Virus genome (UHGV): UHGV-1378817
Strand: one strand, 5' to 3'
DNA length: 64,000 nucleotides
Source: a virus
Shown: positions 1 through 42,329 of the stretch, one piece after another
How positions within the stretch are numbered: the stretch's first letter is position 1
Layout: each line of letters starts with the position of its first letter
Position numbers and translations under genes: made by a program
Notes under the pieces: model-generated
Database searches by the model: none
What the model saw: only the letters and a program-made list of their open reading frames with translations
What the model was told of the DNA's origin: nothing

Positions 1-1202
1 AAGGTCCCTAAGAAACCTTCTCTGTGGATGCCTTGGAAATAAACACTTTCTGTCCAGCTAACTGGCAGGCGTTGCTCAACATATTTAGCTGTAGCAAGAG
101 CTTGATAGTGGATAAAATTTGCCCTAGGGCTATTGTTTGCAGATTGTGCACCAATATCATTACACAAGTTGCGAGAGAATCCACGATACTGCTTAGTGCC
201 ATTGTTGAAGAAAATGCCACTTGTGCCGTACCCACGAGCCATTATTACCTCATGGGTGTAGGTGATATTTAAGGAACGCCATGTGTCATCTCCCCAGACG
301 TCTTGCCCGTAGAATACGTTAACAAGCTGCTGGTCATTGGGTGTGTGCATCCTCTGTGTGGCAATTATTGCCCCGTTAGGACCGCACATAAACCCTTTCC
401 ACTCCTCATCTGCAGGAATGCCTCTCAAATCGTTACGAGTAATCTGCACAGGAGGCCAAACAAGGTCGTTTCTACTGTTATTTCTCAGAAAGTCGTATCC
501 AGCAATCCAGAAACCTCTAGGACCACCGAAAATAACAGAGTTGTCATGAACTTCACAATTAATTCTTGGATTTTTCCAAGGACCTGTCTCTGGACTTTCA
601 GATGTTTCACCGATCTTTACAGGGGTTGCATGCTGATTTTTATCTACATGCAAAGATCCGTAGGTGTTGTTACCAGATCCATACAGGTTCAGTATGCCAG
701 TGCCTTCTGCTTCTGCAATAACCCAGACCGTGTTGTTAATACCTCCCATCACCTCAATAAGGCGCTCTGGGTGGGTGTCAAGGTGCAACCCTTTAACGAT
801 CTGTTCAGGAAGAGGTGTCCACTCTCTTACACAAACATCATTACCGCCTGCAGCATCAGACCCAATAAGCCCTGCCGTGCAGCCGATGTAGAAAAACTGG
901 TTATCAAAAGTTCGGATCACAAACGCACGGTCTGCTCTCCACACATGATCAACGTTCCAGGCAGCCTCGTTGGGATAGTTTATCGTGTCAAGATCCCCAG
1001 TGCGGCACTCTCCGAACCTGTTATAGCCCGTGATATTAAGTTGACCATCATCAAAGAGTATAGCTAAGCTATTTACATAGGATACTGTGTTGCTTGTACC
1101 ATCACTGTTGTCTATTGGGTATGACAGAACAGCAAGTTCCTTAATTCCACCCCTCTTATCGAGGAAATGACGACCAAGTTTTAGCAAAGGGATTGGAAGC
1201 AT
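1..1202 (-). CDS. tail fibre/spike-like structural protein, partial (C-terminal part runs off the window edge)
   Basis: Minus-strand frame is open from ATG (plus 1200-1202) to position 1 with no stop, checked codon by codon; GGAGA 7 nt upstream of ATG; absent from ORF track because it has no in-window stop; lies at distal end of the fibre cluster. Confidence 0.4.
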   Translation of the reverse strand, partial: MLPIPLLKLGRHFLDKRGGIKELAVLSYPIDNSDGTSNTVSYVNSLAILFDDGQLNITGYNRFGECRTGDLDTINYPNEAAWNVDHVWRADRAFVIRTFDNQFFYIGCTAGLIGSDAAGGNDVCVREWTPLPEQIVKGLHLDTHPERLIEVMGGINNTVWVIAEAEGTGILNLYGSGNNTYGSLHVDKNQHATPVKIGETSESPETGPWKNPRINCEVHDNSVIFGGPRGFWIAGYDFLRNNSRNDLVWPPVQITRNDLRGIPADEEWKGFMCGPNGAIIATQRMHTPNDQQLVNVFYGQDVWGDDTWRSLNITYTHEVIMARGYGTSGIFFNNGTKQYRGFSRNLCNDIGAQSANNSPRANFIHYQALATAKYVEQRLPVSWTESVYFQGIHREGFLGT

Positions 1203-1220
1203 TGTGTTCTCCAGATAAGA

Positions 1221-1246
1221 AAACCGCCCCGTCAGGAGCGGTTAGA
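1221..1246 (-). terminator. candidate intrinsic terminator
   Basis: On minus transcript: stem AACCGCUCC / GGGGCGGUU with UGAC loop, followed by U-rich UUUUCUUAU; sits between stop of 1251..2996 and next start. Confidence 0.35.
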
Positions 1247-1250
1247 TATA

Positions 1251-2996
1251 TTAACGTTGTGCAATTACCACGTCTACGATATCACCAACACCGCAATACG
1301 TTAATTGCAGCAAGGTAACACTGTTAGCCTTGTTGTTAATAACAGGTGTTGCCGACAGGATAGCATACTTATCGTGCAAAGTCACGTTGTGACCTACAGC
1401 ATCCTGAATGACATAGATAACTGCAGTGAATGGATAAGGTTTATCTTCCGCTGATGTACCAGGCCATTGCCCTATTGTAAAATCCCCTTTCGCGTGAACA
1501 ACATACATGCTGGCCTGCCCGTTAGGTGTCCATGTCCCACTGGACGCGTCAACCTCCTCTAAATCAAAATCTACCTTTCCTGCGTGGAAAGTAGGGGCAG
1601 TAATGGTTTTACCCGCCTCAATTTCTTGAGAGGTGGTTATCTTACCACTGGAGTTAATGCCATTACAAACAAAGTTGACATTAGAGAAGTCTGGCAGCCA
1701 CCCAGTCACTGTGCCGGATATTTCAAGGTTGTGAAGGTAGGTGGTGCCCGTCCCTGCTGCGTTTAAACTAACATCTCCATTTACCTGCAAGTTTCTGGTA
1801 ACGTTGCAGTTTTCAGAGTTTGCAGTTGTTGCAGTTAAAGTAGTGGTTGTCAGCTCGGTAATTACACCTTTGTTGGCTGTAAGCCCTTCCCCTTCAAAAG
1901 TTGCACGCTCATTGACTCTTAGGGTATTCAGAGCTATGTTTTGGATAGAGGCTGTACCTCGAATAACTACAGATCCGCCAACTTCTAAATCACCATTTAT
2001 TAATGCGTCCCCCGTACTTTCAATATAGCTAGGGTAGATCATGGTGCCATCGACAGAGTAGGTTATCCCTGTAACAGTGCCTGTCACCTCAAGGTTCTTA
2101 ACCCTGGTGGTTCCATCTACCTGCAATGTCGGTTCGGTTGCTGCCTTCATGGCATTACCACGAATGTACACGTAGTCAAAAAAGTTATTACCTAGACCAT
2201 CAAAATGCACATCGTTATTATTAGCCACTGGTTTCCCAGAAGTTATAGTGTCAGCTATAACCCTGTGGGTGGACACTTCATGAGGTTGCAGCTCTGTGCT
2301 TCTCCAGTCTGCATGTTTAGGATCGCTCCACGCAAAAGTAAGTGTAGAAGTATTTGCCGTGAGGATTAGGTTCCTGAAGCGTGCAGTAGAATCTGCTCCA
2401 TTAACAGGCCCATGTAAGGTGAGTGTGCCCCCAACTATGGTGTTAGCAAGTTCTGTAAGACCTTTTACCACCAAAGACCCTACAGTAACTTTCATTCCCT
2501 CCATGGCTTCAAATATGCTATCCACATAGTCAACAACAAACTCTGTGTTTGCTATAGACTCAGACTTATCGTCCATTGGAGGCGTAGGTACTCGCGGGTC
2601 ACCTTCGAACCTCGGGCTGTTAAGTTTTGCGTAGTATTTTGCCATTACTGCAGAATCGGTATATAATCTCCAGTTTGGAGATTGTGAAGGATCTGCTGGC
2701 ATTCTAACAGGGTTAGATTTTGATGCTGCGGGAGCGTACCACCACTGAGGACCTGTGTCCCCTTTAAACTCGTACAGCTGGTTAAAAACTGTTGTGGATG
2801 CGCCATACGCCCAAGGGATCGGTGGCGTTTTAAAATAAAGGTTGTCAAGCATGGCTTTTCGTACCGTAGGGATGGTGGTCCCATCCTCTACGACAACTTC
2901 ATCCACAGCGTTACCGTTGACAACCAAGTGCAAACGTTCAGAATCAACAATTACTTGATCTACCGCCTGCTCAAAGCTTGTCATGTCTTGCGCCAT
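1251..2996 (-). CDS. tail fibre / tailspike protein (581 aa)
   Basis: Long ORF in fibre cluster; Gly/Thr/Asn-rich repetitive beta-type sequence (e.g. TGTVTGITYSVDG, GDLEVGGSVVIRG) typical of fibre/spike shafts. Confidence 0.55.
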   Translation of the reverse strand: MAQDMTSFEQAVDQVIVDSERLHLVVNGNAVDEVVVEDGTTIPTVRKAMLDNLYFKTPPIPWAYGASTTVFNQLYEFKGDTGPQWWYAPAASKSNPVRMPADPSQSPNWRLYTDSAVMAKYYAKLNSPRFEGDPRVPTPPMDDKSESIANTEFVVDYVDSIFEAMEGMKVTVGSLVVKGLTELANTIVGGTLTLHGPVNGADSTARFRNLILTANTSTLTFAWSDPKHADWRSTELQPHEVSTHRVIADTITSGKPVANNNDVHFDGLGNNFFDYVYIRGNAMKAATEPTLQVDGTTRVKNLEVTGTVTGITYSVDGTMIYPSYIESTGDALINGDLEVGGSVVIRGTASIQNIALNTLRVNERATFEGEGLTANKGVITELTTTTLTATTANSENCNVTRNLQVNGDVSLNAAGTGTTYLHNLEISGTVTGWLPDFSNVNFVCNGINSSGKITTSQEIEAGKTITAPTFHAGKVDFDLEEVDASSGTWTPNGQASMYVVHAKGDFTIGQWPGTSAEDKPYPFTAVIYVIQDAVGHNVTLHDKYAILSATPVINNKANSVTLLQLTYCGVGDIVDVVIAQR

Positions 2997-3005
2997 GATT
3001 TCTCC

Positions 3006-3272
3006 TTAAGCTTTTTGCTCTTCGTTTTTAACGTGGTCAGGGTGCTGGCAACCCCACCGGAGCGAGATGAATTTGCTAATAAGCTGGGGGCAAGCTACTG
3101 AAGGTGCATATATCCACGCATACCATTCGGGAAGCGTATCATTGTACCCCATATGAATAAACACCCCAGTCATCACCGCCATGCCTATGTTCGACCATAG
3201 CTTAGATTGGGACACTTTCGTAGGGTCATCAGATGCCGCAACCAGCCCCCATAAAAACTGAGTTAGTTTCAT
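3006..3272 (-). CDS. hypothetical small protein (88 aa) with one hydrophobic segment
   Basis: ORF tightly packed between two fibre genes; hydrophobic stretch WSNIGMAVMTGVFIHMGY; no recognisable motif. Confidence 0.35.
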   Translation of the reverse strand: MKLTQFLWGLVAASDDPTKVSQSKLWSNIGMAVMTGVFIHMGYNDTLPEWYAWIYAPSVACPQLISKFISLRWGCQHPDHVKNEEQKA

Positions 3273-3283
3273 TTACCCTCTTT

Positions 3284-4327
3284 TTAAGCATAAGATATAG
3301 TGATCCATTGACCATTTACAAGTTTTTGGATAGCACCTGTCCAGTAATCACCTTGATAAGGGTGTTTATAAGCGTAGTTACCAGAGCACATCACATGTCC
3401 AGGGTAGACTCTTGACTCTCTGTAGGTGGTTTTGAAACGATTTGCTATCCTTACATCATCAACCCCTCTACTGGGCATAGGGATAGTAAGGTTACCACTA
3501 CCGTCTGCGCTGTTACCATTTACCCTGCGGACCACGTTTCTTCCACCAACTGTTGCATATTGGCCCCTAACGGTTTCATCGTTACAATCAACTCTTTCAC
3601 CTATTTGAGCGCTTCCGCAGGATTGTTGTCCGTTGACAGTTGCTCTTGGTATCGTGACCGCATTGGCATTTGCAGAGGAACTTTTTGCATCATTGCATTC
3701 AAGATTTCCTTGGATAGCCAGTCTTGCACGGTTGGCAGTTATAGCATTGAGCTTCATAGCCGAAAACACAGGCTGCCCACCAGAAGGTTGAAATCTCCAA
3801 CGGAACCCGTCTATTTGGTGAGAAGGATCATCAAGATCTGTGCCGTCAGCACCACCGATGTTGTCCATAATCCAGAAATCCATTGTCGTCTTGTCTGGAG
3901 TTATGGTGGTATATATTGCCGCACTATCTGTTGACGCAGATGCAAACTCGATTCTTTGAAGACCTAAAGTTTGAGTCTGAGTCATTATGTCTCCAGACTT
4001 GTCAACATATAGATCGTCCATTTCTTCAGGCGAGTATACATTGAGAACTTGACGTGCAGCAGCTTTGTCTGGAACGTCTGCTAGATTATTAGTGACCCTT
4101 AAGAATCTATTATCCCATCCTGGGACAACATCTTCTGTTAGATGCTTTAACCACGCAGAAAGCATGTGAAGTTCAAAGTTAACAACTTCACATGCCATTC
4201 TTTGTGTCATATCCCAACCTTTCAATCTCTCTTCTTTTTTTGGTTGAGACTTATTCAACTCTCCCGTATTTTCAAGCACAACATCCTGATTGGCCCAAAT
4301 ATCAAGAGGGATAACTGGTTTAGTCAT
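3284..4327 (-). CDS. tail fibre protein, paralog A
   Basis: N-terminus (PLDIWA..QDVVL.NT....GWD) and C-terminus (QKLVNGQWITISYA) match 5342..6382; GDIMTQTQTLGLQRIEF resembles the GDTMTG motif of phage fibres; start taken at ATG 4327 (AGGAGA 5 nt upstream) rather than GTG 4330. Confidence 0.7.
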   Translation of the reverse strand: MTKPVIPLDIWANQDVVLENTGELNKSQPKKEERLKGWDMTQRMACEVVNFELHMLSAWLKHLTEDVVPGWDNRFLRVTNNLADVPDKAAARQVLNVYSPEEMDDLYVDKSGDIMTQTQTLGLQRIEFASASTDSAAIYTTITPDKTTMDFWIMDNIGGADGTDLDDPSHQIDGFRWRFQPSGGQPVFSAMKLNAITANRARLAIQGNLECNDAKSSSANANAVTIPRATVNGQQSCGSAQIGERVDCNDETVRGQYATVGGRNVVRRVNGNSADGSGNLTIPMPSRGVDDVRIANRFKTTYRESRVYPGHVMCSGNYAYKHPYQGDYWTGAIQKLVNGQWITISYA

Positions 4328-4357
4328 CACGTTCTCCTGAGAAAATTCCTTAGGACT

Positions 4358-4389
4358 ATTTTAACACTTTAGAGAACAAAATGCAAGAA
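4358..4389 (-). promoter_or_regulatory. candidate promoter (TTGCAT-17-TGt-TAAAAT, extended -10) for fibre paralog A
   Basis: Minus strand: -35 TTGCAT (plus 4381-4386), 17-nt spacer, TGT then TAAAAT (plus 4358-4363); about 30 nt upstream of the ATG. Confidence 0.35.
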
Positions 4390-4406
4390 CGGAGTCCTTT
4401 CCGTTC
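4371..4406 (-). terminator. candidate intrinsic terminator downstream of 4417..4731
   Basis: Minus transcript hairpin GAACGGA-AAGGACU-CCGUUC followed by UUGCAUUUUGUUCUCU. Confidence 0.4.
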
Positions 4407-4416
4407 TGACCTTTGT

Positions 4417-4731
4417 TTACCTTTTACTATGCTCTACGAGCATGTGCAAAATCTTTTGTACATCAGCTCGGATACCGGAAACATCTGTCCTGACATCCTG
4501 CTTAAGGTCGTTAATATCGGCCTCTAGCTTGCTTAACCGGGTCTCGATAACGGAATCAAGTCTATCTTTTGTAACCATACTGTTTTTCACTAAGATGAGG
4601 TCTTTCTCCAGCTCATCCAACCTCTTGGAAATGCCTTTCCATTTGGTGTGCCACTGGTTGAAAGCCCATACACAGATCGGGACAACGGTACCCATGCAGA
4701 TACCGTACAATGCCGCCAAATCCAACTCCAC
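4417..4731 (-). CDS. membrane-anchored coiled-coil protein (104 aa), function unknown
   Basis: N-terminal hydrophobic helix (LYGICMGTVVPICVWAF) followed by heptad-rich charged region (ELEKDLILVKNSMV..LSKLEADINDLKQDV). Confidence 0.5.
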   Translation of the reverse strand: MELDLAALYGICMGTVVPICVWAFNQWHTKWKGISKRLDELEKDLILVKNSMVTKDRLDSVIETRLSKLEADINDLKQDVRTDVSGIRADVQKILHMLVEHSKR

Positions 4732-4742
4732 AACACCTCCTC

Positions 4743-5327
4743 TTAGAGGGTAGGTCGCTCCGGGAAGAAAATGTCAGGGGCTTTAGATGTATCTATTTCA
4801 AGAAGTTTTACCCTGTACATTTTCAAATCTCTGATGTTACGTTTCTGGTCATCAGTAAGATCATATTCAAGGTCAATCATGTCTTGATAGGCACCAATTC
4901 TAGCAGTAGCCCAAGCAAGTTCTGTCTCTATGACACCCTCTGCCTGTTGAACAAAGAATTCATTGTCTGTGACAAATTCATCACCAACTAAACGCAAAGC
5001 GTCGTGGTGAAGCATAATGTTTTCTGGTACCTCTTCTTTTTTGGCGATAACCACACGAAGACCTGGAGCAGGCCATAAGGCATCAGGTTCTTCTGTAGAT
5101 GTCTTAAGAATTCCCTTTTCGTCAACAAGTAGGAAGATACAACCCGGATTTTCTTGTCGTAATGTTCGTGACTGCACATACCAATCGCCATCATCATTAC
5201 GTAAAAAATACCCAGTGTATGCGGTGTAATCCTCAACCTCTTGAGGGGTCAGCTCTTTGGTTTCCTTGTTGGCGTGGTATTCGCCAGATCCCGGTTGGTA
5301 AAGTTTAAACTCTTGAAGTATTTTCAT
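4743..5327 (-). CDS. tail fibre assembly protein (Tfa-type chaperone)
   Basis: C-terminal region MYRVKLLEIDTSKAPDIFFPERP matches the conserved C-terminal block I recall for Caudovirales tail-fibre assembly proteins; located immediately downstream of fibre gene 5342..6382. Confidence 0.6.
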   Translation of the reverse strand: MKILQEFKLYQPGSGEYHANKETKELTPQEVEDYTAYTGYFLRNDDGDWYVQSRTLRQENPGCIFLLVDEKGILKTSTEEPDALWPAPGLRVVIAKKEEVPENIMLHHDALRLVGDEFVTDNEFFVQQAEGVIETELAWATARIGAYQDMIDLEYDLTDDQKRNIRDLKMYRVKLLEIDTSKAPDIFFPERPTL

Positions 5328-5341
5328 GCTAGTCCTCCGAT

Positions 5342-6382
5342 CTATGCATAATTAACAGTGATCCATTGACCGTTTACAAGTTTTTGTAAAGGTCCTGCCC
5401 AGTAAGTTGAACCACGCATCTCTTTTTTGTCACCGAAATGCCAGCCTGTGACAACGTAGCCGTTGCGGATTGGAGATTCAGAAACGCCGTCCACAAGTCT
5501 TGCACCGATTCTGATGTCTTGCACACCTGTCTGTGGGATAGTGATCGTTACATCACCGTTACCGTTAGCCGTCACCCCGTTCACAGAGCGAACCACATTT
5601 CTGTTACCGACAACACAGTGCTGGCTTCTTACAACCATACTGTCACAACTTGCACCACCATTAACATATACTGACCCAGCCGTCAACTGACTAGCCACAT
5701 TACAGTTGGTGAATGTTGCGGTATTGCTGATAGTAAGGTTATTGCACCTCATGTTATCGACAACTTCAACATTGCCTACCACTTTCAACAGCGCACGGTT
5801 AGCCGTGATCGCGTTAAGGTACATCAAAGTGAACTCCGGATTAATATCCGGCTGAGTTGGCTGGAATCTCCAACGAAACGCATCTATTGTAGATGTGCCA
5901 CCATCATCAAACGCCCCAATATTATCACTTAACCCAAAGTCGAGAGTTGTCTTATCTGGGCCAATGGTTGTCTCTATCCAAGCCTTATCTGTCTCGGCAG
6001 CTTTAAAGTTGATACGTTGCAAACCCAATGGGCCTGTCATTGTATCACCTGTAACTTTTACATACCTGGCGTCTGCCTCTTCCTTAGTAATAATCCCAAG
6101 GTTTCTACGGGCAACAGGGATGTTCAAAAGATCACTCAAGTTATTATCACGTACCAGATAACGACCTTCTTGAGCGGGGATCTGCTCGTCAGCAATGTAT
6201 TTTGCCCAAGTCCCGAGCATATTGAAAATATAGTTAAGCTCTTCGCACGAGGGCTTTTGACCAAGATCCCAACCTTTTCTCCACAAATCATCAATCGGGC
6301 GTAGCCTGTTCTGTCTGTGGGTGTTAGGCAGAACCTGATCCTCCTCTGCCCAAATCTCTAATGGAAAACTAGGTTTTGACAT
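5342..6382 (-). CDS. tail fibre protein, paralog B
   Basis: Shares N- and C-terminal blocks with 3284..4327 (PLEIWA..QVLPNT....GWD ... LQKLVNGQWITVNYA); contains GDTMTGPLGLQRINF. Confidence 0.7.
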   Translation of the reverse strand: MSKPSFPLEIWAEEDQVLPNTHRQNRLRPIDDLWRKGWDLGQKPSCEELNYIFNMLGTWAKYIADEQIPAQEGRYLVRDNNLSDLLNIPVARRNLGIITKEEADARYVKVTGDTMTGPLGLQRINFKAAETDKAWIETTIGPDKTTLDFGLSDNIGAFDDGGTSTIDAFRWRFQPTQPDINPEFTLMYLNAITANRALLKVVGNVEVVDNMRCNNLTISNTATFTNCNVASQLTAGSVYVNGGASCDSMVVRSQHCVVGNRNVVRSVNGVTANGNGDVTITIPQTGVQDIRIGARLVDGVSESPIRNGYVVTGWHFGDKKEMRGSTYWAGPLQKLVNGQWITVNYA

Positions 6383-6394
6383 TTTATCTCCTGA

Positions 6395-8467
6395 TTATGA
6401 GAAGTCTGGCGGGACAACATCTTCTACATACCCTTTCAAAGCAACCTGCCCCATATGAAGCACGGTAGAATCTCTAGCGGTAACAGTGATGCTGTCGGAC
6501 ATTACTTGCGGGTATGCCCACACATACTGTTTTACCTCAGGGTATCTATACTCTATAGTTGCCATGTTTCCGCAAATACATCTCCATAAAAATTCTTGGT
6601 AATTCCTAGTTGGGTCGTAGCCATATACCGGAGCAAGCTCTTTACTAGGAACGAACCCTGCAAGGTATTGTATTTCGGACGGTTGCCAACCTAACTTAAC
6701 GATAGGTATGTTTACAGACTCTTTTGCCTTTTCAATACCTCCCTGCATCACCCAATCGTAGCACTCGGTGCAGAAGAAATCAAGAGCACCTGCTTCCTTT
6801 TTATATTGGTCAGCAAGGTTCAGCTTTTGTGTAAGCTCAGTTTCCATAATGGTTGGGAAAAACAGCAAAGCTGTCATCTGAGCTGATGCAGCGTGTGCCT
6901 TTATTGCCTTTGAAATAGCCGCAATACGAGCGCCAAGCTTACCACGACAAAATGCTACATACTTGTCGTAAACACCACCAGTTTTAGGATCGTCAATAGT
7001 CCCAATATCTAATGCATACTCACCTGTCTCATCATAAAACGCCTGCTTTGTAGGGTAATCATAAATACAAGGTCTACGAGTATCGGTATTGTACCACCAC
7101 CACGGTTCACCAACCTGCATAATCACTGGCAGGTTGTTTCTCATAGCGGCTGATGCAAAATTCTTAAATACTGCAGTAAGGAAATTCATACCCTCTTCAA
7201 TGGTTGGGGACAGGAGGTAGCTACAAGGTGTATACCCTGTTTTAGCGTAGTTATCGTTCCAGTCTCTTTGGGTCCATTCCAACGGGCAGGCATCGCTGAA
7301 AAGCTCAAAACTTACAGATTGCATAACGTCGAAGTTATGTCGTTTGGCATTGTACATAAAATCATCATGCCATTTATAAGCTGCAGCGTTTAGAGCCCCT
7401 GTTCTGTTTATAGACCATTGGGTTCCGGACCATGTGTAGTCATAATAATGACTCATACCAACATAATGGTTTATGGTTCCGGTATAGCCCAGACGCTTGA
7501 TATTGTTCAACACCCTTAAAGGAGACACGTTCCACATATCGTCATATGCGGTGCAGATCCCAACGTCGTGCTCTCTCACCTGGATATTGTTAAGTTGCAT
7601 CATTTTCCAGCCTGTGTCTGGCTGAAGCAGATCTAGGCGCAACTCACACTCTACATTTTCCGTTCTCGGGTCTGTGCTGTTACTTACCCAGTCTTTAGGC
7701 ATAAGTGGTATTAAAATCCTTCTCACCTGCCGAGGATCAACACCCATCATGCTGTTATTCTGGTCCATCCCGACGCAGTCCTCAAAATCAATATGAATTT
7801 CTGCAACATTCTTATCCTCTGAGATGCTGACAGCATATTGAGCTAAAGGAACATAGATGATTGTGCCATCAACAAGGTCTACAGTCATAATCATCTTTTC
7901 AGGAGTGGAGAAGTTGCTGGCGTTGGTTATTGACATTCTGAACCAAAGCTTGGTGTTTCTCATCTCATAGTGATCATCAAACCCAATACCGAAATGGTCA
8001 TACTTGTCAACTGTTTCCCAAATGCACCCAGCCATACCTCCATATGTTCTTGACACTAAACGGTTAATACAACAGTTGTTATCTGCAACAATACAGGTAC
8101 TTTCAGTCTGCTGAGTAGTTGTAACCCAATATCTTGGGTGAAACATTCTCTCCTCGACAGTATCCCAAGATATCCTGTCAAGATTCTCATCTGAAACTAT
8201 TGTACATTTCGCCCTTTGTGTCCCAATCATCACCCCTTGAGATTTTGATGAAAACTCCATAAAGAAGCTTCTTGGTAACCTGTTGGGTAATTTGTCAACA
8301 ATTTCCACTGGGATCTCAATACTGGTTGCCCCAATTGGGATAGTTACATCGCCCTCAACATGATTATAATCTCTACCAGGAACGGCAGTATCCTGAACTG
8401 TTCGGTAATGAAACTGTGCAGCCATTGTAGAGTAATCACGGTAAGGTTTAAAAACAGCTGTTGCCAT
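6395..8467 (-). CDS. tail fibre/spike protein (690 aa) with Calx-beta-like N-terminal segment
   Basis: TAVPGRDYNHVEGDVTIPIGATSIEIPVEIVD resembles the Calx-beta pattern; large Trp/Tyr-rich C-terminal region could be enzymatic; position in fibre cluster. Confidence 0.45.
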   Translation of the reverse strand: MATAVFKPYRDYSTMAAQFHYRTVQDTAVPGRDYNHVEGDVTIPIGATSIEIPVEIVDKLPNRLPRSFFMEFSSKSQGVMIGTQRAKCTIVSDENLDRISWDTVEERMFHPRYWVTTTQQTESTCIVADNNCCINRLVSRTYGGMAGCIWETVDKYDHFGIGFDDHYEMRNTKLWFRMSITNASNFSTPEKMIMTVDLVDGTIIYVPLAQYAVSISEDKNVAEIHIDFEDCVGMDQNNSMMGVDPRQVRRILIPLMPKDWVSNSTDPRTENVECELRLDLLQPDTGWKMMQLNNIQVREHDVGICTAYDDMWNVSPLRVLNNIKRLGYTGTINHYVGMSHYYDYTWSGTQWSINRTGALNAAAYKWHDDFMYNAKRHNFDVMQSVSFELFSDACPLEWTQRDWNDNYAKTGYTPCSYLLSPTIEEGMNFLTAVFKNFASAAMRNNLPVIMQVGEPWWWYNTDTRRPCIYDYPTKQAFYDETGEYALDIGTIDDPKTGGVYDKYVAFCRGKLGARIAAISKAIKAHAASAQMTALLFFPTIMETELTQKLNLADQYKKEAGALDFFCTECYDWVMQGGIEKAKESVNIPIVKLGWQPSEIQYLAGFVPSKELAPVYGYDPTRNYQEFLWRCICGNMATIEYRYPEVKQYVWAYPQVMSDSITVTARDSTVLHMGQVALKGYVEDVVPPDFS

Positions 8468-9153
8468 TAACCCTCCTGTCTAGTTGCGTTTACTGTAATA
8501 CTTTCACAATAAATGGTTGTGGTGTCCCAATCAGGTCTTACGTCAGGAACATATAGCAAAGTAGCCAGCCCACCAACTCCGAATTGGTTTTCTTCCCACA
8601 CTGATCCGAAGCCAAGAGCTGTAGAGTCCCCTTCAAAACCAAAAGCTTGCCCTTGCGATTCTGTAAGACGCAAATGACAAGGTAATGGTAGCATATCTAA
8701 GATCTGATCGATAGACTGCAATATGTCAAAGCAAGTTTTTCTAATATTTATGTCAAACCTGAAGTTGTCTCCTTTCCACGTATCGAAATTGTCTCTTCCG
8801 AACAATTGTCGCAAGGTGGAGATGACATCTTCGCGAGTCCCGCCCCTTGATGCTGCAGCCTGCTGAATAATTAGTGTGGCACGAAAATCAGCATCTGAAA
8901 GTCCATTCCTAAGAATACCAAGTTGATTACCAACTTCGTCAAGGTATCTTCCGCTGGCATTGTTAAGCAATCTTCCTTCAGCCAAACCTACCAGCATCTT
9001 ATCAACATCCTCCAACCTTTTAAGGTACACGGTTAAGAATGTGACTAAATTAACCTTCTCAGCCAGAAAATCTCCAGGCAGGTAGTCAAGACCTCCCTGA
9101 ACAAAATCTGGCAGAGTGTGGATGTGGTTAACATCCGACTTAATCTCTGCCAT
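8467..9153 (-). CDS. baseplate/tail structural protein (228 aa)
   Basis: ORF with 1-nt overlap to downstream gene (translational coupling); position between baseplate and fibre genes; no diagnostic motif. Confidence 0.45.
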   Translation of the reverse strand: MAEIKSDVNHIHTLPDFVQGGLDYLPGDFLAEKVNLVTFLTVYLKRLEDVDKMLVGLAEGRLLNNASGRYLDEVGNQLGILRNGLSDADFRATLIIQQAAASRGGTREDVISTLRQLFGRDNFDTWKGDNFRFDINIRKTCFDILQSIDQILDMLPLPCHLRLTESQGQAFGFEGDSTALGFGSVWEENQFGVGGLATLLYVPDVRPDWDTTTIYCESITVNATRQEG

Positions 9154-9164
9154 ATCTCGCCGCC

Positions 9165-10655
9165 TTAAATAGTTTGTTGGAAAGTTATATTACTTTCGTC
9201 GAGGTCAAACACCTCGGTCATGTTCGCAACAATATCGTTTGTAGTGTAAGCTTCATCAGAAGCTCCTACAGATTTAACTTGAATTACCAGTCTATTAAAT
9301 CTGCCTATTGACACAGCAGCAGATGCAGCACCGACCAATTGGATATTGTACAACGTATCTGCAACATCCAGCCCGTTAACAACCTGCAAAAGAGCCTCTA
9401 CAATGGCATCTTTTTCGGTTGTGGAAAGCGCAGCACCGGAGTAGGTAATTCTTACATCCAGGCGGTAGGTATTTGCCTTGGAGTAATAAATTCTTTCAGT
9501 TTGACCGTCAGATGTAGTGACATCGTAGAAAATATTACCATAAGTCCTGTTCGTACAGGCTATAGTTTGGTAAAGTGCTTGGCAAATGTCCTCCGTTGCA
9601 CCACCAAACACAACCACTTGGAACTTGTAAGGAGGTATACCTTTAGCATCAGTTTTATCAGTGTTGTTGGAGAACACTCTCACTTTCTCAACACCTTTCA
9701 CCTCGCTTACAGCGCTAAGGATTGCAGGACGGGTAGCCTTAGATGTTAACTGTTTTGTGCTGGAAGCTCTTAAGCGATACTCTGAGTCTTTCTCAACATC
9801 CCTGCCTTCATTGAACCTTTCTCGGTTGGTAAGCTTGATAAATCCACTGGGAGTAGGTGACATTGTTGTCACGGTTTCTGCCTCTCTTGACAGCTCACCA
9901 GCCTCGTTAGCGATAACATCCAGTGTGATAGTTCTTTCCCCTACAATCGGGGATACTCTGAAATCTACTCTACTATTAAGTCCAACTTGATCAAGATTCG
10001 AATTGTACCCTATCCACAACGTTCCTGTCAACATATCGATCTGAATCAAATCGTCGTTCAACAGGGTTGTATTATCGACAATGAATTGCTTAATCTCTCC
10101 GTAAAAGCTTGGCAAATCAGAAGAGTCCAGAGACTTATCTGTTAAAACCAGGCTTTTTGTTTTGATACTTCCATCTGTCTGGTTGGTAATTTGAAAGTTG
10201 TATTTACCAATCCTTAGGTCTGGAGCATTTATTCTGTGAGCAATAAGATTCCCTGCTACTTGCACATCGTTGCTAAGAACAAAGTTGCCACTGTCCAGCG
10301 TATAAGTTTTGGAATCATAAATCATATTGTACGGCACAGTTGTGTTGATTGTCAACTGGCAGGTACCTGATGATTTAGAACGGCCTCTTCGGTAAATACC
10401 CTGTCTTCCAAGAAGCTCATCCAGGTAAATACCTTCTGCCCCATACAGCGTCTGTGATGCGTATACAGATGCTGCCATAAGAATAAGTTGATACTCTCGC
10501 TCGTTGAAGATAGTGGTCAGCTTATCTGCAACGGAGTTACTCTGTACGTTGAAGTTTTCGCCAAAAGCACGGATCAGGCTTTGCTTAGTTTCAACGATTA
10601 GGTCATTTAGGGTTGGTATAACGAAACCAGCCTCTGTCAATCCATACTTAGCCAC
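9165..10655 (-). CDS. baseplate-associated structural protein (496 aa)
   Basis: GTG start with GGAGGA 7 nt upstream; large structural ORF directly after a terminator-promoter cassette; function by position only. Confidence 0.45.
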   Translation of the reverse strand: MAKYGLTEAGFVIPTLNDLIVETKQSLIRAFGENFNVQSNSVADKLTTIFNEREYQLILMAASVYASQTLYGAEGIYLDELLGRQGIYRRGRSKSSGTCQLTINTTVPYNMIYDSKTYTLDSGNFVLSNDVQVAGNLIAHRINAPDLRIGKYNFQITNQTDGSIKTKSLVLTDKSLDSSDLPSFYGEIKQFIVDNTTLLNDDLIQIDMLTGTLWIGYNSNLDQVGLNSRVDFRVSPIVGERTITLDVIANEAGELSREAETVTTMSPTPSGFIKLTNRERFNEGRDVEKDSEYRLRASSTKQLTSKATRPAILSAVSEVKGVEKVRVFSNNTDKTDAKGIPPYKFQVVVFGGATEDICQALYQTIACTNRTYGNIFYDVTTSDGQTERIYYSKANTYRLDVRITYSGAALSTTEKDAIVEALLQVVNGLDVADTLYNIQLVGAASAAVSIGRFNRLVIQVKSVGASDEAYTTNDIVANMTEVFDLDESNITFQQTI

Positions 10656-40099: not shown

Positions 40100-41647
40100 T
40101 TAGATAAAACGCTTGAACATAGAAGGTGATGAGATTGATGGAATCACACAAGGAAGTGCTACCTCCTCTTTCTCCAGGAAATTAATCGCAGAAGCTACAC
40201 AGTCGGCCCAGTCGTCTTTTCTATTAAATGTTGATCTTTCCCCGTTGAATTTTTCAAGTTCAGTCAGAAATGCTTCCAGAGTATCAGGATGGAAACTGGA
40301 TTTTACAATCCTCACCATTCCTTGTTGGGCAAGATTGGCAAAAGGTGAGAACCTTGTCAGTTTAGATTTGTTGGAAGGCATTGGGTCTTCTTCAACCCTA
40401 AACCCTTCGGCGAGCAAGGATCTAGAGGAGGTTAAGAACTCACTCTTACCTGCCTGACCTGGGTCCACAGAGAAGACGATTATGCAATCATCACCATCAA
40501 ACTGCGCCTGTTTCCTGATGATCACATCTCGTTCACCAGCCTTTTTACAGAACTTGCCTTCCAGACCTGTGGAATACCTCCCGTCATCCACGTTCTCAGG
40601 ACAATAATCACCGGACAGGTAATAAAAGCCGTCGCTATCTTTACTTACCTTAACACTGGCGGTAAAGTCAGGAAACTTATTACCAGAAGTTCTCTCGGTT
40701 CCTGCCTTATCCCATGCCCTACAAGATACTGATCCAAGGGGCACTCTGTCGGCATCACGAAGGAAAGATCTTTGAAAATAGTTTGCACCCTCAGGCTTTG
40801 CAAACCAGTTACCATGGAGAAGCTGAGCTTTTTCAAGCTCGGGCAGACCTTCAAGGAAAGCAAGGTATTCTGGGTTGTCTCTTAAGCAGACAGGATTATC
40901 GAATATTGTTGCGCCTATAAACGAGAATGACAACGGTCTTGGCTTGATCTCCACACCCAGTCCGTTAACCGTGGTGTATTTCTCTATCAACTCTTCTTTA
41001 GAGTCTCCCCAGATAAATTCACCGTCGCGTCGGATAAAATATCTTTTCTTACCACATTTCTCCGGATCTGGATACCCTTCATCGTCCAACCACCATCTAA
41101 CCAGTTTGGCAAGCATGTGTTCTGAATCGGGGTTACAGCTGATAACCATTCTTGATGGATACTTTGACTGAGATCGCAGACGAGACATCAGATAGTCTAT
41201 CTGCTCCCATTCGAACTGCGTGCCCTCATCGAAGCAAACCATGGTATACTCAAGCCCTTGATGGTTAAGCTTATCTTGTACATACTCCATGTGGCAGTAT
41301 TTTACAACAGCTCCCTTTTTGCTTCTATCCCACTTGCCAGTGTTCGGATCAAACCGTGGAAAAATGAACTTATGATCCTTCTCTCTGAACTTTGGCTTAA
41401 TGTTTTCAGGCAGATCACTATAAATAGCTACTGCTTTAGGCCATAGTCCACCCTCACCTTCCAACTGTGGGGTTGTTCTTCGGAACATAACCACAGAGCT
41501 GTGGGGGTCATCAATAATTTTAAGTGGCATCAATTGCAAGAGGAACGACTTGCCAGACCCTGCGGCACCGCCGATTACCAAAATATCTGCATCGTTTTCG
41601 AGGATCATCTTCTGCTTTTCAGAACACGGTCCGTAAATCTTAGACAT
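40100..41647 (-). CDS. terL: terminase large subunit
   Basis: Walker A GGAAGSGKS near N-terminus (ILVIGGAAGSGKSFLLQ); 515 aa; followed by portal gene. Confidence 0.75.
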   Translation of the reverse strand: MSKIYGPCSEKQKMILENDADILVIGGAAGSGKSFLLQLMPLKIIDDPHSSVVMFRRTTPQLEGEGGLWPKAVAIYSDLPENIKPKFREKDHKFIFPRFDPNTGKWDRSKKGAVVKYCHMEYVQDKLNHQGLEYTMVCFDEGTQFEWEQIDYLMSRLRSQSKYPSRMVISCNPDSEHMLAKLVRWWLDDEGYPDPEKCGKKRYFIRRDGEFIWGDSKEELIEKYTTVNGLGVEIKPRPLSFSFIGATIFDNPVCLRDNPEYLAFLEGLPELEKAQLLHGNWFAKPEGANYFQRSFLRDADRVPLGSVSCRAWDKAGTERTSGNKFPDFTASVKVSKDSDGFYYLSGDYCPENVDDGRYSTGLEGKFCKKAGERDVIIRKQAQFDGDDCIIVFSVDPGQAGKSEFLTSSRSLLAEGFRVEEDPMPSNKSKLTRFSPFANLAQQGMVRIVKSSFHPDTLEAFLTELEKFNGERSTFNRKDDWADCVASAINFLEKEEVALPCVIPSISSPSMFKRFI

Positions 41648-41934
41648 TAACCTCTCTCCTTTGGAAACAGTGTTCTAATATAGTCTTGCAAAATGATCAA
41701 TTTAGCTCTATCATTGCTACAAGACAGATTATTATCCCTCATAATGCCAGAATTCACTGCATCTGGAGCACCTTTCTTCAAAGGCATAGCTTTAGCAGGT
41801 GGTTTCATGGCACCTTCCGGGGGTTTAACAATCAACCTTCCTACATCCGGAGGGTCAATCTTGTATTCTCTCTCAACGCTGGTTGCACACCCACATAATA
41901 ACAAGCACACAATAAACAGTGTAGCAACTCTCAT
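41647..41934 (-). CDS. outer-membrane spanin (Rz1-like lipoprotein)
   Basis: Signal peptide with Cys-containing lipobox-like LLLCGC; Pro-rich mature part; 4-nt overlap with upstream i-spanin-like gene. Confidence 0.55.
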   Translation of the reverse strand: MRVATLFIVCLLLCGCATSVEREYKIDPPDVGRLIVKPPEGAMKPPAKAMPLKKGAPDAVNSGIMRDNNLSCSNDRAKLIILQDYIRTLFPKERG

Positions 41935-42329
41935 CGATCCTCCTGATTGATACTCTCATTATAAATATCTATAAGCTGATCAGGGAGTGTTGACTTCTTG
42001 CCTTCAGGTGATTGGAGGTAGATAATCTGCTTTTCTTTACCTGCCCTCTCAGCCATATTTAATTTATCCTGCAGATCAGAAAGAGATTTTTCAAGGTTTT
42101 TAACCTCCTCTGCGTGGCCCATTTTAATTTTGTCGGCCTGCTTTTGTTGCTGATCAAGGATCCGTTCCCACTTTAACTCTGTTGCTGACACACCCTCTTG
42201 GTAGGCATCATTAAGCTTGGAGTTAAACCAATACACGGCCCCAAGATAAGCTGTACCTATCGCAGCTGCAAAAACTAAACCTTTTATGATCCCTCTATAC
42301 CTACTCAGCCATGTTAAAACTGAAATCAT
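41931..42329 (-). CDS. inner-membrane spanin (Rz-like)
   Basis: N-terminal TM helix (GLVFAAAIGTAYLGAVYWF) followed by coiled-coil periplasmic domain; paired with overlapping lipoprotein gene. Confidence 0.5.
   Translation of the reverse strand: MISVLTWLSRYRGIIKGLVFAAAIGTAYLGAVYWFNSKLNDAYQEGVSATELKWERILDQQQKQADKIKMGHAEEVKNLEKSLSDLQDKLNMAERAGKEKQIIYLQSPEGKKSTLPDQLIDIYNESINQEDR

What the first reader, a model, noticed from the sequence alone, without database searches (positions are those of the whole stretch)
3284..6382. Tandem paralogous fibres with conserved ends and divergent middle, separated by a Tfa chaperone and a membrane coiled-coil gene
Fibre paralogs A and B share N-terminal (PL.IWA...GWD) and C-terminal (QKLVNGQWIT..YA) blocks but differ centrally, the signature of receptor-binding cassette exchange. 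Between them lie a Tfa-type assembly chaperone and a 104-aa protein with an N-terminal TM helix plus coiled coil, whose role among fibre genes is unclear.
Basis: seen in the sequence. Interest (0 to 1): 0.5.

Follow-up and report, generated by a model that had tools for sequence, protein, structure and literature searches.

The report
rV5-type phage short tail fibre module
This is the already described short-tail-fibre gene cluster of an rV5-like E. coli phage (two old paralogous fibres, one Mu-type assembly chaperone, one small membrane protein); it is ordinary, apart from the still unknown role of the small membrane protein.

Summary
They are STF-B (5342-6382, rV5 gp33), Tfa chaperone (4743-5327, gp32), a 104-aa TM plus coiled-coil protein (4417-4731, gp31) and STF-A (3284-4327, gp30). 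The window is a Vequintavirus, 98.5% identical to published phages.

Kropinski 2013 and Maffei 2021 already describe the paralog pair and its chaperone, so the core finding is known.

The "conserved ends, divergent middle" description is only partly right. Identity is patchy, and the central block (aa 116-205) is the best conserved at about 60%. The variable parts are aa 40-115, 206-250 and a tip loop at 291-330.

I found no active cassette exchange:
- Both copies are at least 95% identical in about 116 genomes.
- Synonymous sites are saturated.
- One tree with a roughly twofold faster STF-A branch explains the pattern.

STF-A is an old duplicate with its own predicted late promoter. It sits where other Vequintavirinae genera carry a 4-TM gene.

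The N-terminus matches the solved wedge-docking joint of the phiTE fibre. The C-terminus of STF-B matches the Mu gpS tip.

gp31 follows Tfa in every Vequintavirinae genus examined, was not detected in virions, and is not the spanin. Its function remains unknown.

The parts
5342..6382 (-). STF-B, short tail fibre (rV5 gp33 ortholog, 346 aa). It is the ancestral copy, placed directly after the baseplate genes and before Tfa.
   Evidence: PHROG 4465 tail fibre, E=1e-171. The N-terminal aa 1-108 match the phiTE short tail fibre 9cuy_c, E=1.6e-19. The C-terminal aa 286-343 match Mu gpS 5yvq residues 440-501. It is 95-99.7% identical in 116 Vequintavirus records, and 40-48% identical to the single STF of other genera. 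gp33 was detected in rV5 virions by MS (PMC3606486).
4743..5327 (-). Tail fibre assembly chaperone (rV5 gp32 ortholog, 194 aa), Mu U / lambda Tfa type. It is the only Tfa in the 64-kb window.
   Evidence: Pfam PF02413 Caudo_TAP, E=8e-12, 45.8 bits against a cut-off of 22.1. PHROG 136, E=2e-36. phmmer found no second copy in the window. gp32 was detected in rV5 virions. The N-terminal half is more variable than the C-terminal half, and it carries a lineage-specific insert at about aa 16-35.
4417..4731 (-). gp31 ortholog, 104 aa: an N-terminal TM helix (aa 5-23) followed by a continuous coiled coil. It is the last gene of the upstream late transcription unit. Function unknown.
   Evidence: PHROG 5345 (unknown function), E=1.5e-48. 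AF2 models a single helix, pLDDT 68. Homologs at 23-33% identity lie directly after Tfa in Avunavirus, Seunavirus, Mydovirus, Certrevirus, Henunavirus and phage A5-4. There are only 12 hits in 1.84e9 representative proteins. No gp31 peptides appear in the rV5 virion MS file.
4331..4416 (-). Intergenic junction: a terminator-like hairpin (4386-4407), then the late-promoter-like motif TGTTAAAATA (4357-4366), then the RBS of STF-A.
   Evidence: The hairpin has dG -15.9 kcal/mol, z -3.6. The motif equals predicted late promoter P030 of rV5 (PMC3606486 Table S4). The hairpin position, the TTGCATTTT tract and the GTGyTAAAATA motif are conserved in the divergent lineages L015 and L012. The aligned stem arms differ at paired positions in a way that keeps pairing, read by eye from the alignment; those hairpins are weaker.
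3284..4327 (-). STF-A, second short tail fibre (rV5 gp30 ortholog, 347 aa). It is an old lineage-specific duplicate and evolves faster than STF-B.
   Evidence: PHROG 4465, E=3e-166. It is 44% identical to STF-B. The N-terminus matches 9cuy_c, E=1.9e-8. It is at least 95% identical in about 116 Vequintavirus records and at most 40% identical to anything else. Its branch is 2.2 times longer than that of STF-B. Against L015, dN is 0.159 versus 0.086 for STF-B, while dS is saturated. gp30 was detected in rV5 virions.
3006..3272 (-). gp29 ortholog, an 88-aa small membrane protein. It is conserved next to this module in all Vequintavirinae examined.
   Evidence: PHROG 1322 membrane protein, E=2.7e-32. 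It is 50% identical to the Av-05 homolog. The homolog in L010 carries a precomputed PF10841 DUF2644 hit.

Best explanation
The region is the short-tail-fibre (STF) module of a Vequintavirus, equivalent to rV5 genes 33-30.

STF-B
- It is the ancestral Mu-gpS / phi92-gp147 / phiTE-STF type trimeric fibre.
- Its first ~90 residues form the joint that docks on the baseplate wedge.
- Its last ~60 residues form a Mu-S-like distal tip. [quoted passage not shown]

gp32 (Tfa)
- It is a Mu-U-type Tfa that folds and caps the fibre tip and stays on the virion.

STF-A
- It is an old duplicate of STF-B, made in the lineage leading to Vequintavirus.
- It was placed downstream under its own predicted late promoter, in the slot where sister genera carry a 4-TM membrane protein gene.
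- It is kept by purifying selection but evolves about twice as fast as STF-B.
- Its own changes are concentrated in the wedge-docking domain, a beta-helical shaft segment and a tip loop.
- The most likely reading is a second, functionally diverged STF with a different LPS-core or receptor preference. It would still use the single Tfa through the conserved distal tip region, of which the last 16 residues are the best conserved part.

gp31
- It belongs to the ancestral gene trio STF-Tfa-gp31.
- It is a late-expressed membrane-anchored coiled-coil protein that was not detected in virions.
- My best guess is that it is an accessory factor of STF/Tfa assembly or handling at the inner membrane.

Shown versus inferred
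- Shown: gene identities, homologies, conservation, the layout comparison and the rate asymmetry.
- Inferred: receptor roles, shared use of Tfa, and the gp31 function.
For: Identity of the locus
- It is 98.5% identical at the DNA level to published Vequintavirus genomes, whose annotations read "short tail fiber protein (x2), tail fiber chaperone".

Fibre type
- N-terminus: both copies match the solved phiTE STF 9cuy_c. Residues 3-92 of that fibre form the trimeric joint bound to wedge 1 (PMC11972413).
- C-terminus: STF-B matches Mu gpS 5yvq.
- phi92 fibre III is gp147, a Mu-like fibre attached to the wedge and proposed to mediate irreversible binding (PMC13450770).

Chaperone
- Pfam Caudo_TAP scores above threshold.
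- Mu-type Tfa proteins remain on the fibre tip (PMC9608196).
- rV5 gp32 was found in virions together with gp30 and gp33.

Receptor

Duplication history
- Only Vequintavirus records carry two copies.
- The uncultured relatives L015 and L012 share the layout.
- Six other genera or lineages have STF-Tfa-gp31-4TM-gp29-fibre.
- The 4-TM gene is absent from the window.
- Synonymous sites are saturated.
- Derived states shared by A and B cluster in aa 116-205, and the A branch is longer.
- dN is 0.159 for A against 0.086 for B, with dN far below dS for all genes.

Separate transcription unit
- This rests on the hairpin and promoter motif in the gp31/STF-A gap.

gp31
- Its conserved position after Tfa extends, as a remote homolog, to phi92-like phages: hhalign E=1.8e-4, with reciprocal weak PHROG hits.
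- It was not detected in the rV5 virion MS data.
- Its Certrevirus counterpart is also missing from the virion proteome. This is inferred from gene order: CB7_33-35 lie between the listed CB7_31 and CB7_36 and are not themselves in the virion table.
- It diverges about as fast as Tfa and STF-A. Identity to L012 is 53%, 45% and 50% respectively, against 79% for the wedge protein.
Against: - No experiment links either paralog to a receptor.
- Maffei 2021 stress that neither paralog shows allelic variation. That fits a conserved receptor better than host-range diversification.
- In lineage L012 the tips of the two paralogs are 85-100% identical in protein. A different tip is therefore not a general property of the pair.
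- The C-terminus of STF-A does not itself reach significance against Mu gpS.
- Both paralogs carry the same kind of wedge-docking domain. The phiTE and phi92 structures show six STF sites, so it is unclear how two fibres are accommodated.
- For gp31 there is no positive functional evidence. The topology call rests only on the positive-inside rule, and the AF2 model is a low-confidence single helix.
Confidence: 0.8

Rival explanations
1. The two fibres are a cassette-exchange system, in which a variable receptor-binding module is swapped by recombination between the paralogs or with other phages, while the conserved ends serve as recombination or assembly anchors.
For: - Divergence is strongly heterogeneous along the proteins.
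- At deep evolutionary distance the N-terminal anchor and the C-terminal ~58 aa occur separately in unrelated phages, and Klebsiella Mydovirus has a different tip.
- The 3' 63 nt of both genes are 83% identical at the DNA level. Nine of 11 identical residues use the same codon, P about 0.004 before correction for seven segments. This could be a short conversion tract.
Against: - Both genes are at least 95% identical in about 116 genomes (also PMC8594841).
- Apart from the last 16 codons, synonymous sites are saturated and no DNA-level recombination tract was found.
- The centre is the best conserved part, not the most variable.
- No invertase gene was recognised among the locus ORFs scanned against Pfam and PHROGs, and there are no flanking inverted repeats.
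- All three site patterns fit one tree with unequal rates.
- Recombination between the 3' direct repeats would delete Tfa.
Confidence: 0.1
2. gp31, possibly together with gp29 and (in other genera) the 4-TM protein, is a lysis or lysis-timing protein. It could be the unidentified holin or antiholin of rV5-like phages, sitting next to fibre genes as T4 holin gene t sits next to gene 38.
For: - The holin of V5-like phages has not been identified (PMC6658697; PMC3606486).
- gp31 and gp29 are small membrane proteins expressed in a late operon.
- Neither rV5 gp31 nor the Certrevirus counterparts CB7_33-35 (identified by gene order) were detected in virions.
- The phi92-like counterpart gives a weak hit to a PHROG annotated Rz-like spanin, E=5e-4.
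- Small membrane proteins of this kind evolve fast.
- The adjacency of T4 t to gene 38 is from my own knowledge and was not tested here.
Against: - There is no hit to any holin, antiholin or spanin family in Pfam, NCBIfam or PHROGs for gp31 itself.
- A bona fide i-spanin/o-spanin pair lies at 41647-42329 and is unrelated to gp31.
- gp31 has an acidic N-terminus and a basic stretch after the TM helix. That is the opposite of the i-spanin in the same genome.
- No lipobox ORF is embedded in or adjacent to gp31.
- The 4-TM gene is dispensable in Vequintavirus.
- The linkage that is conserved is to Tfa.
Confidence: 0.2
3. gp31 is a superinfection-exclusion or receptor-masking membrane protein encoded next to the receptor-binding genes, like Cor or Llp next to the fibre/RBP genes of T1-like, phi80 and T5 phages, or HK97 gp15 in a tail gene cluster.
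For: - It is a membrane protein located beside the RBP genes.
- It was not detected in virions.
- It diverges as fast as the fibre and Tfa genes.
- gp29 falls in PHROG 1322, whose category is "moron/host takeover".
- The analogies to Cor, Llp and HK97 gp15 are from my own knowledge.
Against: - It has no signal peptide or lipobox.
- It lies in a late structural operon of a virulent phage, downstream of the predicted late promoter P036.
- The presumed receptor is an LPS sugar, which a 104-aa coiled coil cannot obviously mask.
- It gives only marginal hits in PADLOC (best E=0.005 and 0.02, both to coiled-coil models), and PADLOC does not target such proteins.
Confidence: 0.1
4. STF-A is a redundant or decaying copy with no distinct role.
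For: - It has the longest branch and the highest dN of the locus.
- Its docking domain is strongly diverged: 20 A-specific against 4 B-specific changes in aa 1-70.
Against: - The ORF is intact in all ~116 Vequintavirus genomes at 95% identity or more.
- It is also intact in the two divergent uncultured lineages.
- dN is far below the saturated dS.
- It has its own conserved promoter-like motif and RBS.
- The protein was detected in rV5 virions.
Confidence: 0.05

Closest known systems
rV5 gp33-gp32-gp31-gp30 (Kropinski et al. [quoted passage not shown] 2021, PMC8594841, S5D Fig)
   Same: It is the same locus with the same gene order and sizes, at 98% identity or more. The paralogy (42.3% identity), the Tfa and the "membrane protein, 1 TMD" are already annotated. 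So is the idea that two LPS chemotypes may be recognised.
   Different: There is nothing substantive. The additions here are the identity profile, the rate asymmetry, the replacement of the 4-TM gene, the separate promoter, the uncultured two-STF lineages, and the exclusion of a spanin role for gp31.
Phage Mu tail fibre gpS with Tfa gpU (PDB 5YVQ)
   Same: It is a fibre followed by a Caudo_TAP chaperone. The distal tip of STF-B aligns with gpS residues 440-501, including the P.QK.(V/I)NG.W motif. The chaperone is retained in the virion.
   Different: There is no invertible G segment, no inverted S'/U' copy and no invertase. The second fibre is co-oriented, has no Tfa of its own, and is constitutively present in virions. 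The N-terminal anchor is not Mu-like.
phiTE short tail fibre (PDB 9CUY/9MJN) and phi92 fibre III gp147
   Same: The N-terminal ~90-108 residues are homologous to the solved joint that binds wedge 1. The position after the wedge genes is the same, and Tfa and a gp31-like gene follow.
   Different: Those phages have a single STF. The phiTE fibre is longer (554 aa), with a coiled coil and Ig-like domains, and targets flagella. The phi92-like fibre shares only the ends.
T4 gp12 short tail fibres, with T4 gene 38 lying next to holin gene t
   Same: The functional analogy is a baseplate-attached fibre for irreversible LPS-core binding. HHpred similarity of gp30 and gp33 to gp12 is reported in PMC3606486.
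   Different: No gp12 chain was found by sequence search of the PDB. T4 uses gp57A rather than a Caudo_TAP protein. T4 has one gp12 gene.
Rz-type i-spanins (for gp31)
   Same: Small size, with an N-terminal TM helix followed by a coiled coil. The phi92-like counterpart gives a weak hit to PHROG 739.
   Different: gp31 has no partner lipoprotein and the opposite charge distribution around the TM helix. It has no sequence similarity to the real i-spanin of the same genome at 41931-42329.

Membership tests
Vequintavirinae / Mu-S-type short tail fibre (PHROG 4465; phiTE STF, phi92 gp147) | N-terminal wedge-docking joint homologous to phiTE STF residues 3-92 | tested here: met
   phmmer against 9cuy_c gives STF-B aa 1-108 at E=1.6e-19 and STF-A aa 2-84 at E=1.9e-8.
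Vequintavirinae / Mu-S-type short tail fibre (PHROG 4465; phiTE STF, phi92 gp147) | Mu gpS-like C-terminal tip domain | tested here: inconclusive
   STF-B matches 5yvq_A with whole-sequence E=5e-6, and the tip stretch 286-343 against 440-501 has i-E 0.007. STF-A has no direct hit at E<1. It aligns to the STF-B tip, and the last 16 aa are 75% identical.
Vequintavirinae / Mu-S-type short tail fibre (PHROG 4465; phiTE STF, phi92 gp147) | Gene lies directly after the baseplate wedge genes and directly before a Tfa gene | tested here: met
   This is met for STF-B. It is not met for STF-A, which follows gp31 and is followed by gp29.
Vequintavirinae / Mu-S-type short tail fibre (PHROG 4465; phiTE STF, phi92 gp147) | Trimeric fibre present on the virion baseplate | not testable with these tools
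   From the literature only. rV5 gp30 and gp33 were detected by virion MS. There is cryo-EM for phiTE and phi92 but none for an rV5-type phage.
Caudo_TAP tail fibre assembly proteins (Mu gpU, lambda Tfa; PF02413) | Conserved C-terminal Caudo_TAP domain scoring above the Pfam gathering threshold | tested here: met
   45.8 bits against 22.1, aa 121-192. PHROG 136, E=2e-36.
Caudo_TAP tail fibre assembly proteins (Mu gpU, lambda Tfa; PF02413) | Variable N-terminal fibre-binding domain and a more conserved C-terminal domain | tested here: met
   N-terminal against C-terminal identity is 73/85% to L015, 42/50% to L012 and 30/35% to Av-05. The difference is modest.
Rz-like i-spanin (considered for gp31) | Partner o-spanin lipoprotein gene embedded, overlapping or adjacent | tested here: not met
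   There is no lipobox ORF in or next to 4417-4731. The genome's spanin pair is at 41647-42329.
Rz-like i-spanin (considered for gp31) | N-in/C-out topology and sequence membership of a spanin family | tested here: not met
   The acidic N-terminus (E2, D4) and the basic flank TKWKGISKR after the TM helix predict N-out/C-in. gp31 has no spanin PHROG or Pfam hit. BLASTP against the real i-spanin gives E=0.08 over 18 aa.
Holins (considered for gp31 and gp29) | Membership of a described holin family, or demonstrated membrane lesion | tested here: inconclusive
   There are no hits in Pfam, NCBIfam or PHROGs. Holins are too diverse for absence of hits to exclude the role. The holin of V5-like phages is unidentified.
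Invertible or switchable fibre cassettes (Mu G segment / P1 C segment type) | Alternative fibre C-termini in inverted orientation, flanked by inverted repeats, with a site-specific invertase | tested here: not met
   Both paralogs are co-oriented and complete. The only inverted repeats are chance-level ones of 14-18 nt. No invertase gene was recognised among the neighbouring ORFs scanned, and none is annotated there in related records.

The most novel reading that the evidence does not exclude
Two readings remain open, and either would be new.

1. gp31 and its relatives may be a third dedicated component of the STF-Tfa module: a membrane-anchored coiled-coil factor needed to assemble or deliver Mu-type short tail fibres. 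The family is conserved directly after Tfa in all Vequintavirinae examined and, remotely, in phi92-like phages.

2. The strongly diverged docking domain of STF-A (20 A-specific against 4 B-specific changes in aa 1-70) may mean that the two paralogs occupy different baseplate sites or form mixed trimers. That would give rV5-type virions a bivalent STF set not seen in phiTE or phi92.
Probability: 0.2. Interest if true: 0.5.

Novelty: already known. Interest (0 to 1): 0.2.

Why it matters
rV5-like phages are among the most commonly isolated E. coli phages and are used in therapy and biocontrol cocktails. Their short tail fibres probably decide irreversible binding to the LPS core.

The locus is published, so the value here is mainly in closing the question. 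It is not an active cassette-exchange system.

Two small, testable leads remain:
- What does the conserved, apparently non-virion membrane coiled-coil protein after Tfa do?
- How are two STF paralogs with the same type of docking domain placed on a six-site baseplate?

Tried and rejected
gp31 searches that gave no functional lead:
- Pfam, NCBIfam and PADLOC returned only sub-threshold coiled-coil noise.
- A profile search of PDB sequences returned only generic, mostly trimeric coiled coils: fibritin, GCN4 fusions and YadA, best E=0.0025.
- The AlphaFold2 model is one long helix at pLDDT 68, so I ran no fold search.
- The word-indexed homolog search found only close relatives.
- The exhaustive representative search found only 12 hits, several of them unrelated coiled coils.

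Other dead ends:
- I looked for a remnant of the 4-TM gene in the window and found none.
- I looked for a second Tfa or a third fibre paralog and found none.
- I looked for inverted repeats or an inversion system and found none.
- I looked for a recent gene-conversion tract in lineage L012, where the two tips are 85-100% identical in protein. I rejected it because the DNA is only 69% identical, with many synonymous differences.
- The spanin hypothesis for gp31 is rejected.
- The Schwarzer 2012 phi92 paper is not held in the library.
- The phiTE paper does not mention gp237-gp240.

Full report
**What is there**

Between 3284 and 6382 the minus strand carries four ORFs:
- a 346-aa ORF at 5342-6382
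- a 194-aa ORF at 4743-5327
- a 104-aa ORF at 4417-4731
- a 348-aa ORF at 3284-4330

The last most likely starts at the ATG at 4327. That gives 347 aa with AGGAG 6 nt upstream.

The 8.2 kb around the locus is 98.5% identical to many published Vequintavirus (rV5-like) E. coli myophages. 111 of 119 matching records cover the whole stretch. Gene sizes and order match rV5 genes 36 to 28 one for one. In rV5 terms the four ORFs are gp33 (here STF-B), gp32 (Tfa), gp31 and gp30 (here STF-A).

**Is the observation right?**

The paralogy is real: 44% identity over the full length, E=6e-96. Both quoted motifs are present.

The 194-aa protein passes the Pfam Caudo_TAP threshold, 45.8 against 22.1 bits.

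The 104-aa protein has one hydrophobic helix (aa 5-23). The rest shows a continuous heptad pattern, and AlphaFold2 models it as a single helix at modest confidence.

The description "conserved ends, divergent middle" does not hold. In 30-residue windows, identity runs as follows:

| Region (aa) | A vs B identity |
|---|---|
| extreme N-terminus | about 50% |
| 40-80 | 27-30% |
| 100-205 | 50-67% (the best long block) |
| 206-250 | about 20% |
| 251-290 | 55% |
| 291-330 | 31% |
| last 16 | 75% |

**This is already published**

- Kropinski et al. 2013 list gp30 and gp33 as tail fibre proteins with 42.3% identity and similarity to T4 gp12. They suggest that two LPS chemotypes may be recognised.
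- The same paper annotates gp32 as the assembly protein and gp31 as a membrane protein with one TMD.
- It reports gp30, gp32 and gp33 in the virion proteome.
- Maffei et al. [quoted passage not shown] They note that neither paralog shows allelic variation.

**What the parts correspond to structurally**

- The first ~90-108 residues of both paralogs match the solved short tail fibre of phage phiTE (9CUY): E=1.6e-19 for B and 1.9e-8 for A.
- In that structure, residues 3-92 form the trimeric joint bound to wedge protein 1.
- The last ~60 residues of STF-B align with the distal tip of Mu gpS (5YVQ residues 440-501), including the P.QK.(V/I)NG.W motif.
- In phi92 the homologous fibre III (gp147) hangs from the wedge and is proposed to mediate irreversible binding.
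- Mu-type Tfa proteins bind the distal fibre through a variable N-terminal domain and stay on the virion. That fits the detection of gp32 in rV5 particles.

**Cassette exchange or old duplication?**

Evidence against active exchange:
- Both paralogs are at least 95% identical in about 116 Vequintavirus records, and only this genus has two copies.
- Between A and B, identical residues use the same codon in 38% of cases against 37% expected. Synonymous sites are therefore saturated and the duplication is old.
- No invertase gene was recognised among the locus ORFs scanned against Pfam and PHROGs, and there are no flanking inverted repeats.

The three-taxon analysis used the single STFs of Av-05, PVP-SE1, GAP31 and KNP2 as outgroup:
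- 48 sites changed on the A branch, 22 on the B branch and 24 on the shared stem.
- A-specific changes cluster in aa 1-70 (20 against 4), 206-250 and 291-330.
- Derived states shared by A and B cluster in aa 116-205 (14 of 20).
- A single tree with region-specific rates explains this, so no recombination is needed.

Two uncultured lineages recovered through gp31 homologs, L015 and L012, have the same two-fibre layout. A is always the faster copy:

| Comparison | STF-A identity | STF-B identity |
|---|---|---|
| window vs L015 | 78% | 88% |
| window vs L012 | 49% | 73% |

dN is 0.159 for A against 0.086 for B, and dN is far below dS for every gene.

In L012 the tips of the two paralogs are 85-100% identical in protein. 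They are only 69% identical in DNA, with many synonymous differences, so this reflects selection and not recent conversion. The rV5-lineage STF-A differs mainly in one tip loop: SGNYAYKHPYQGD in place of the family's TGW.FG(D/N)KKE(L/M)RG.

Modularity is visible only at great evolutionary distance:
- The anchor alone is shared with phiTE, Aeromonas and phAPEC8-type phages.
- The last ~58 aa alone is shared with 52-kb Salmonella phages.
- Klebsiella Mydovirus has another tip.

One detail could be a short conversion tract. The last 63 nt of both genes are 83% identical. Nine of 11 identical residues use the same codon, P about 0.004 before correcting for seven segments.

**Gene layout and transcription**

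Avunavirus, Seunavirus, Mydovirus, Certrevirus, Henunavirus and phage A5-4 all have wedge, baseplate protein, STF, Tfa, gp31-like, a 4-TM protein, gp29-like and a long fibre. A gp34-like gene precedes the STF in Av-05.

In this window STF-A sits exactly where the 4-TM gene is elsewhere. No trace of that gene exists anywhere in the 64 kb.

The 86-nt gap before STF-A contains:
- a hairpin with dG -15.9 kcal/mol, z -3.6;
- then TGTTAAAATA, which is the late promoter P030 predicted for rV5.

Both elements and the RBS are conserved in L015 and L012. The aligned stem arms differ at paired positions in a way that keeps pairing, judged by eye from the alignment. The hairpins there are weaker. The motif TGGTAAAATA with up to one mismatch occurs 18 times in the window against 6 expected.

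So the two paralogs probably belong to different late transcription units: gp36 to gp31, and gp30 to gp28.

**The small membrane protein**

- gp31 belongs to PHROG 5345, of unknown function.
- It has only about eight true relatives among 1.84 billion representative proteins.
- It follows Tfa in every Vequintavirinae genus examined.
- The phi92-like phage PaulScherrer has a 113-aa protein of the same architecture in the same place. The evidence for homology is weak but reciprocal: hhalign E=1.8e-4, probability 49%, plus cross-hits between PHROGs 5345 and 15210.
- No gp31 peptide occurs in the rV5 virion MS file.
- The three small membrane proteins of Certrevirus CB7 are also missing from its virion proteome. 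I identified them by gene order as CB7_33-35, which lie between the listed CB7_31 and CB7_36.

It is not the spanin:
- The real i-spanin/o-spanin pair lies at 41647-42329 and is unrelated to gp31.
- gp31 has no lipoprotein partner.
- Its charge distribution (acidic N-terminus, basic flank after the helix) predicts the opposite topology.

No holin family matches it, but the holin of V5-like phages is still unidentified.

gp31 diverges about as fast as Tfa and STF-A and faster than the baseplate proteins.

My ranking for its role, none of it supported by positive evidence:
1. an accessory factor of STF/Tfa handling at the membrane
2. a lysis-timing protein
3. a superinfection-exclusion protein

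**Verdict**

The locus is the known STF module of rV5-like phages. What remains open is the role of gp31 and how two paralogs with the same kind of docking domain share a six-site baseplate.

Noticed in passing
window 6395-8467 (-): The 690-aa protein upstream of STF-B (rV5 gp34) combines a Calx-beta domain with the N-terminal and TIM-barrel domains of the N4 gp65 non-contractile tail sheath protein (Pfam E=4e-80). Recent literature links this deacetylase-type fibre to NGR/ECA recognition in Vequintavirus, Justusliebigvirus and N4-like phages.
   Followed up: partly
window 41647-42329 (-): A bona fide spanin pair: an i-spanin of 132 aa (41931-42329, PHROG 4297) and an o-spanin of 95 aa with lipobox LLCGC (41647-41934, PHROG 1267). 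They overlap by 4 nt and lie far from any endolysin gene.
   Followed up: yes
window 4331-4416 (-), and the whole window: A terminator-like hairpin (4386-4407, dG -15.9 kcal/mol) is followed by TGTTAAAATA (4357-4366), which equals predicted late promoter P030 of rV5. The motif TGGTAAAATA with up to one mismatch occurs 18 times in the window against 6.1 expected, 15 of them on the minus strand.
   Followed up: partly
window 3285-3347 and 5343-5405: A 63-nt direct repeat, 83% identical, formed by the 3' ends of the two fibre genes. Nine of 11 identical residues use the same codon although the rest of the genes are saturated at synonymous sites (P about 0.004 uncorrected). It may be a short gene-conversion tract or a nucleotide-level constraint.
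   Followed up: partly
window 4743-5327 (-), Tfa residues ~16-35: The Tfa proteins of the three two-fibre lineages (window, L015, L012) carry a 15-20 residue insert in the N-terminal, fibre-binding half. It is absent from the Tfa of all single-fibre genera aligned.
   Followed up: no
L003 5312-5785, L007 6949-7422, L005 5312-5785, L004 5408-5794, L010 6346-6804: A 128-157 aa four-TM protein (PHROG 7451; precomputed Pfam PF26221 Phage_phiTE_239) lies between the gp31-like and gp29-like genes in every other Vequintavirinae genus examined, often overlapping gp31 by 4 nt. It is absent from the whole 64-kb window, and STF-A occupies its slot.
   Followed up: partly
L012-L014 (about 142-kb Logan contigs) and L015-L016: These are uncultured relatives that keep the two-fibre layout but are much more divergent than any Vequintavirus in the phage collection (gp31 53% identical, STF-A 49%, Tfa 45%). 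The gp29-like protein is extended to 122 aa and the two paralogs have near-identical tips.
   Followed up: partly
phage collection hits to window 1000-9200: Between 16 and 21 GenBank records named "Campylobacter phage" (host C. jejuni) are about 98% identical to this E. coli Vequintavirus locus. This looks like a host mislabel or a co-isolated coliphage.
   Followed up: no
window ~48000: GC skew changes sign near 48 kb, from negative (minus-strand late genes) to positive. This is consistent with a switch of transcription direction.
   Followed up: no
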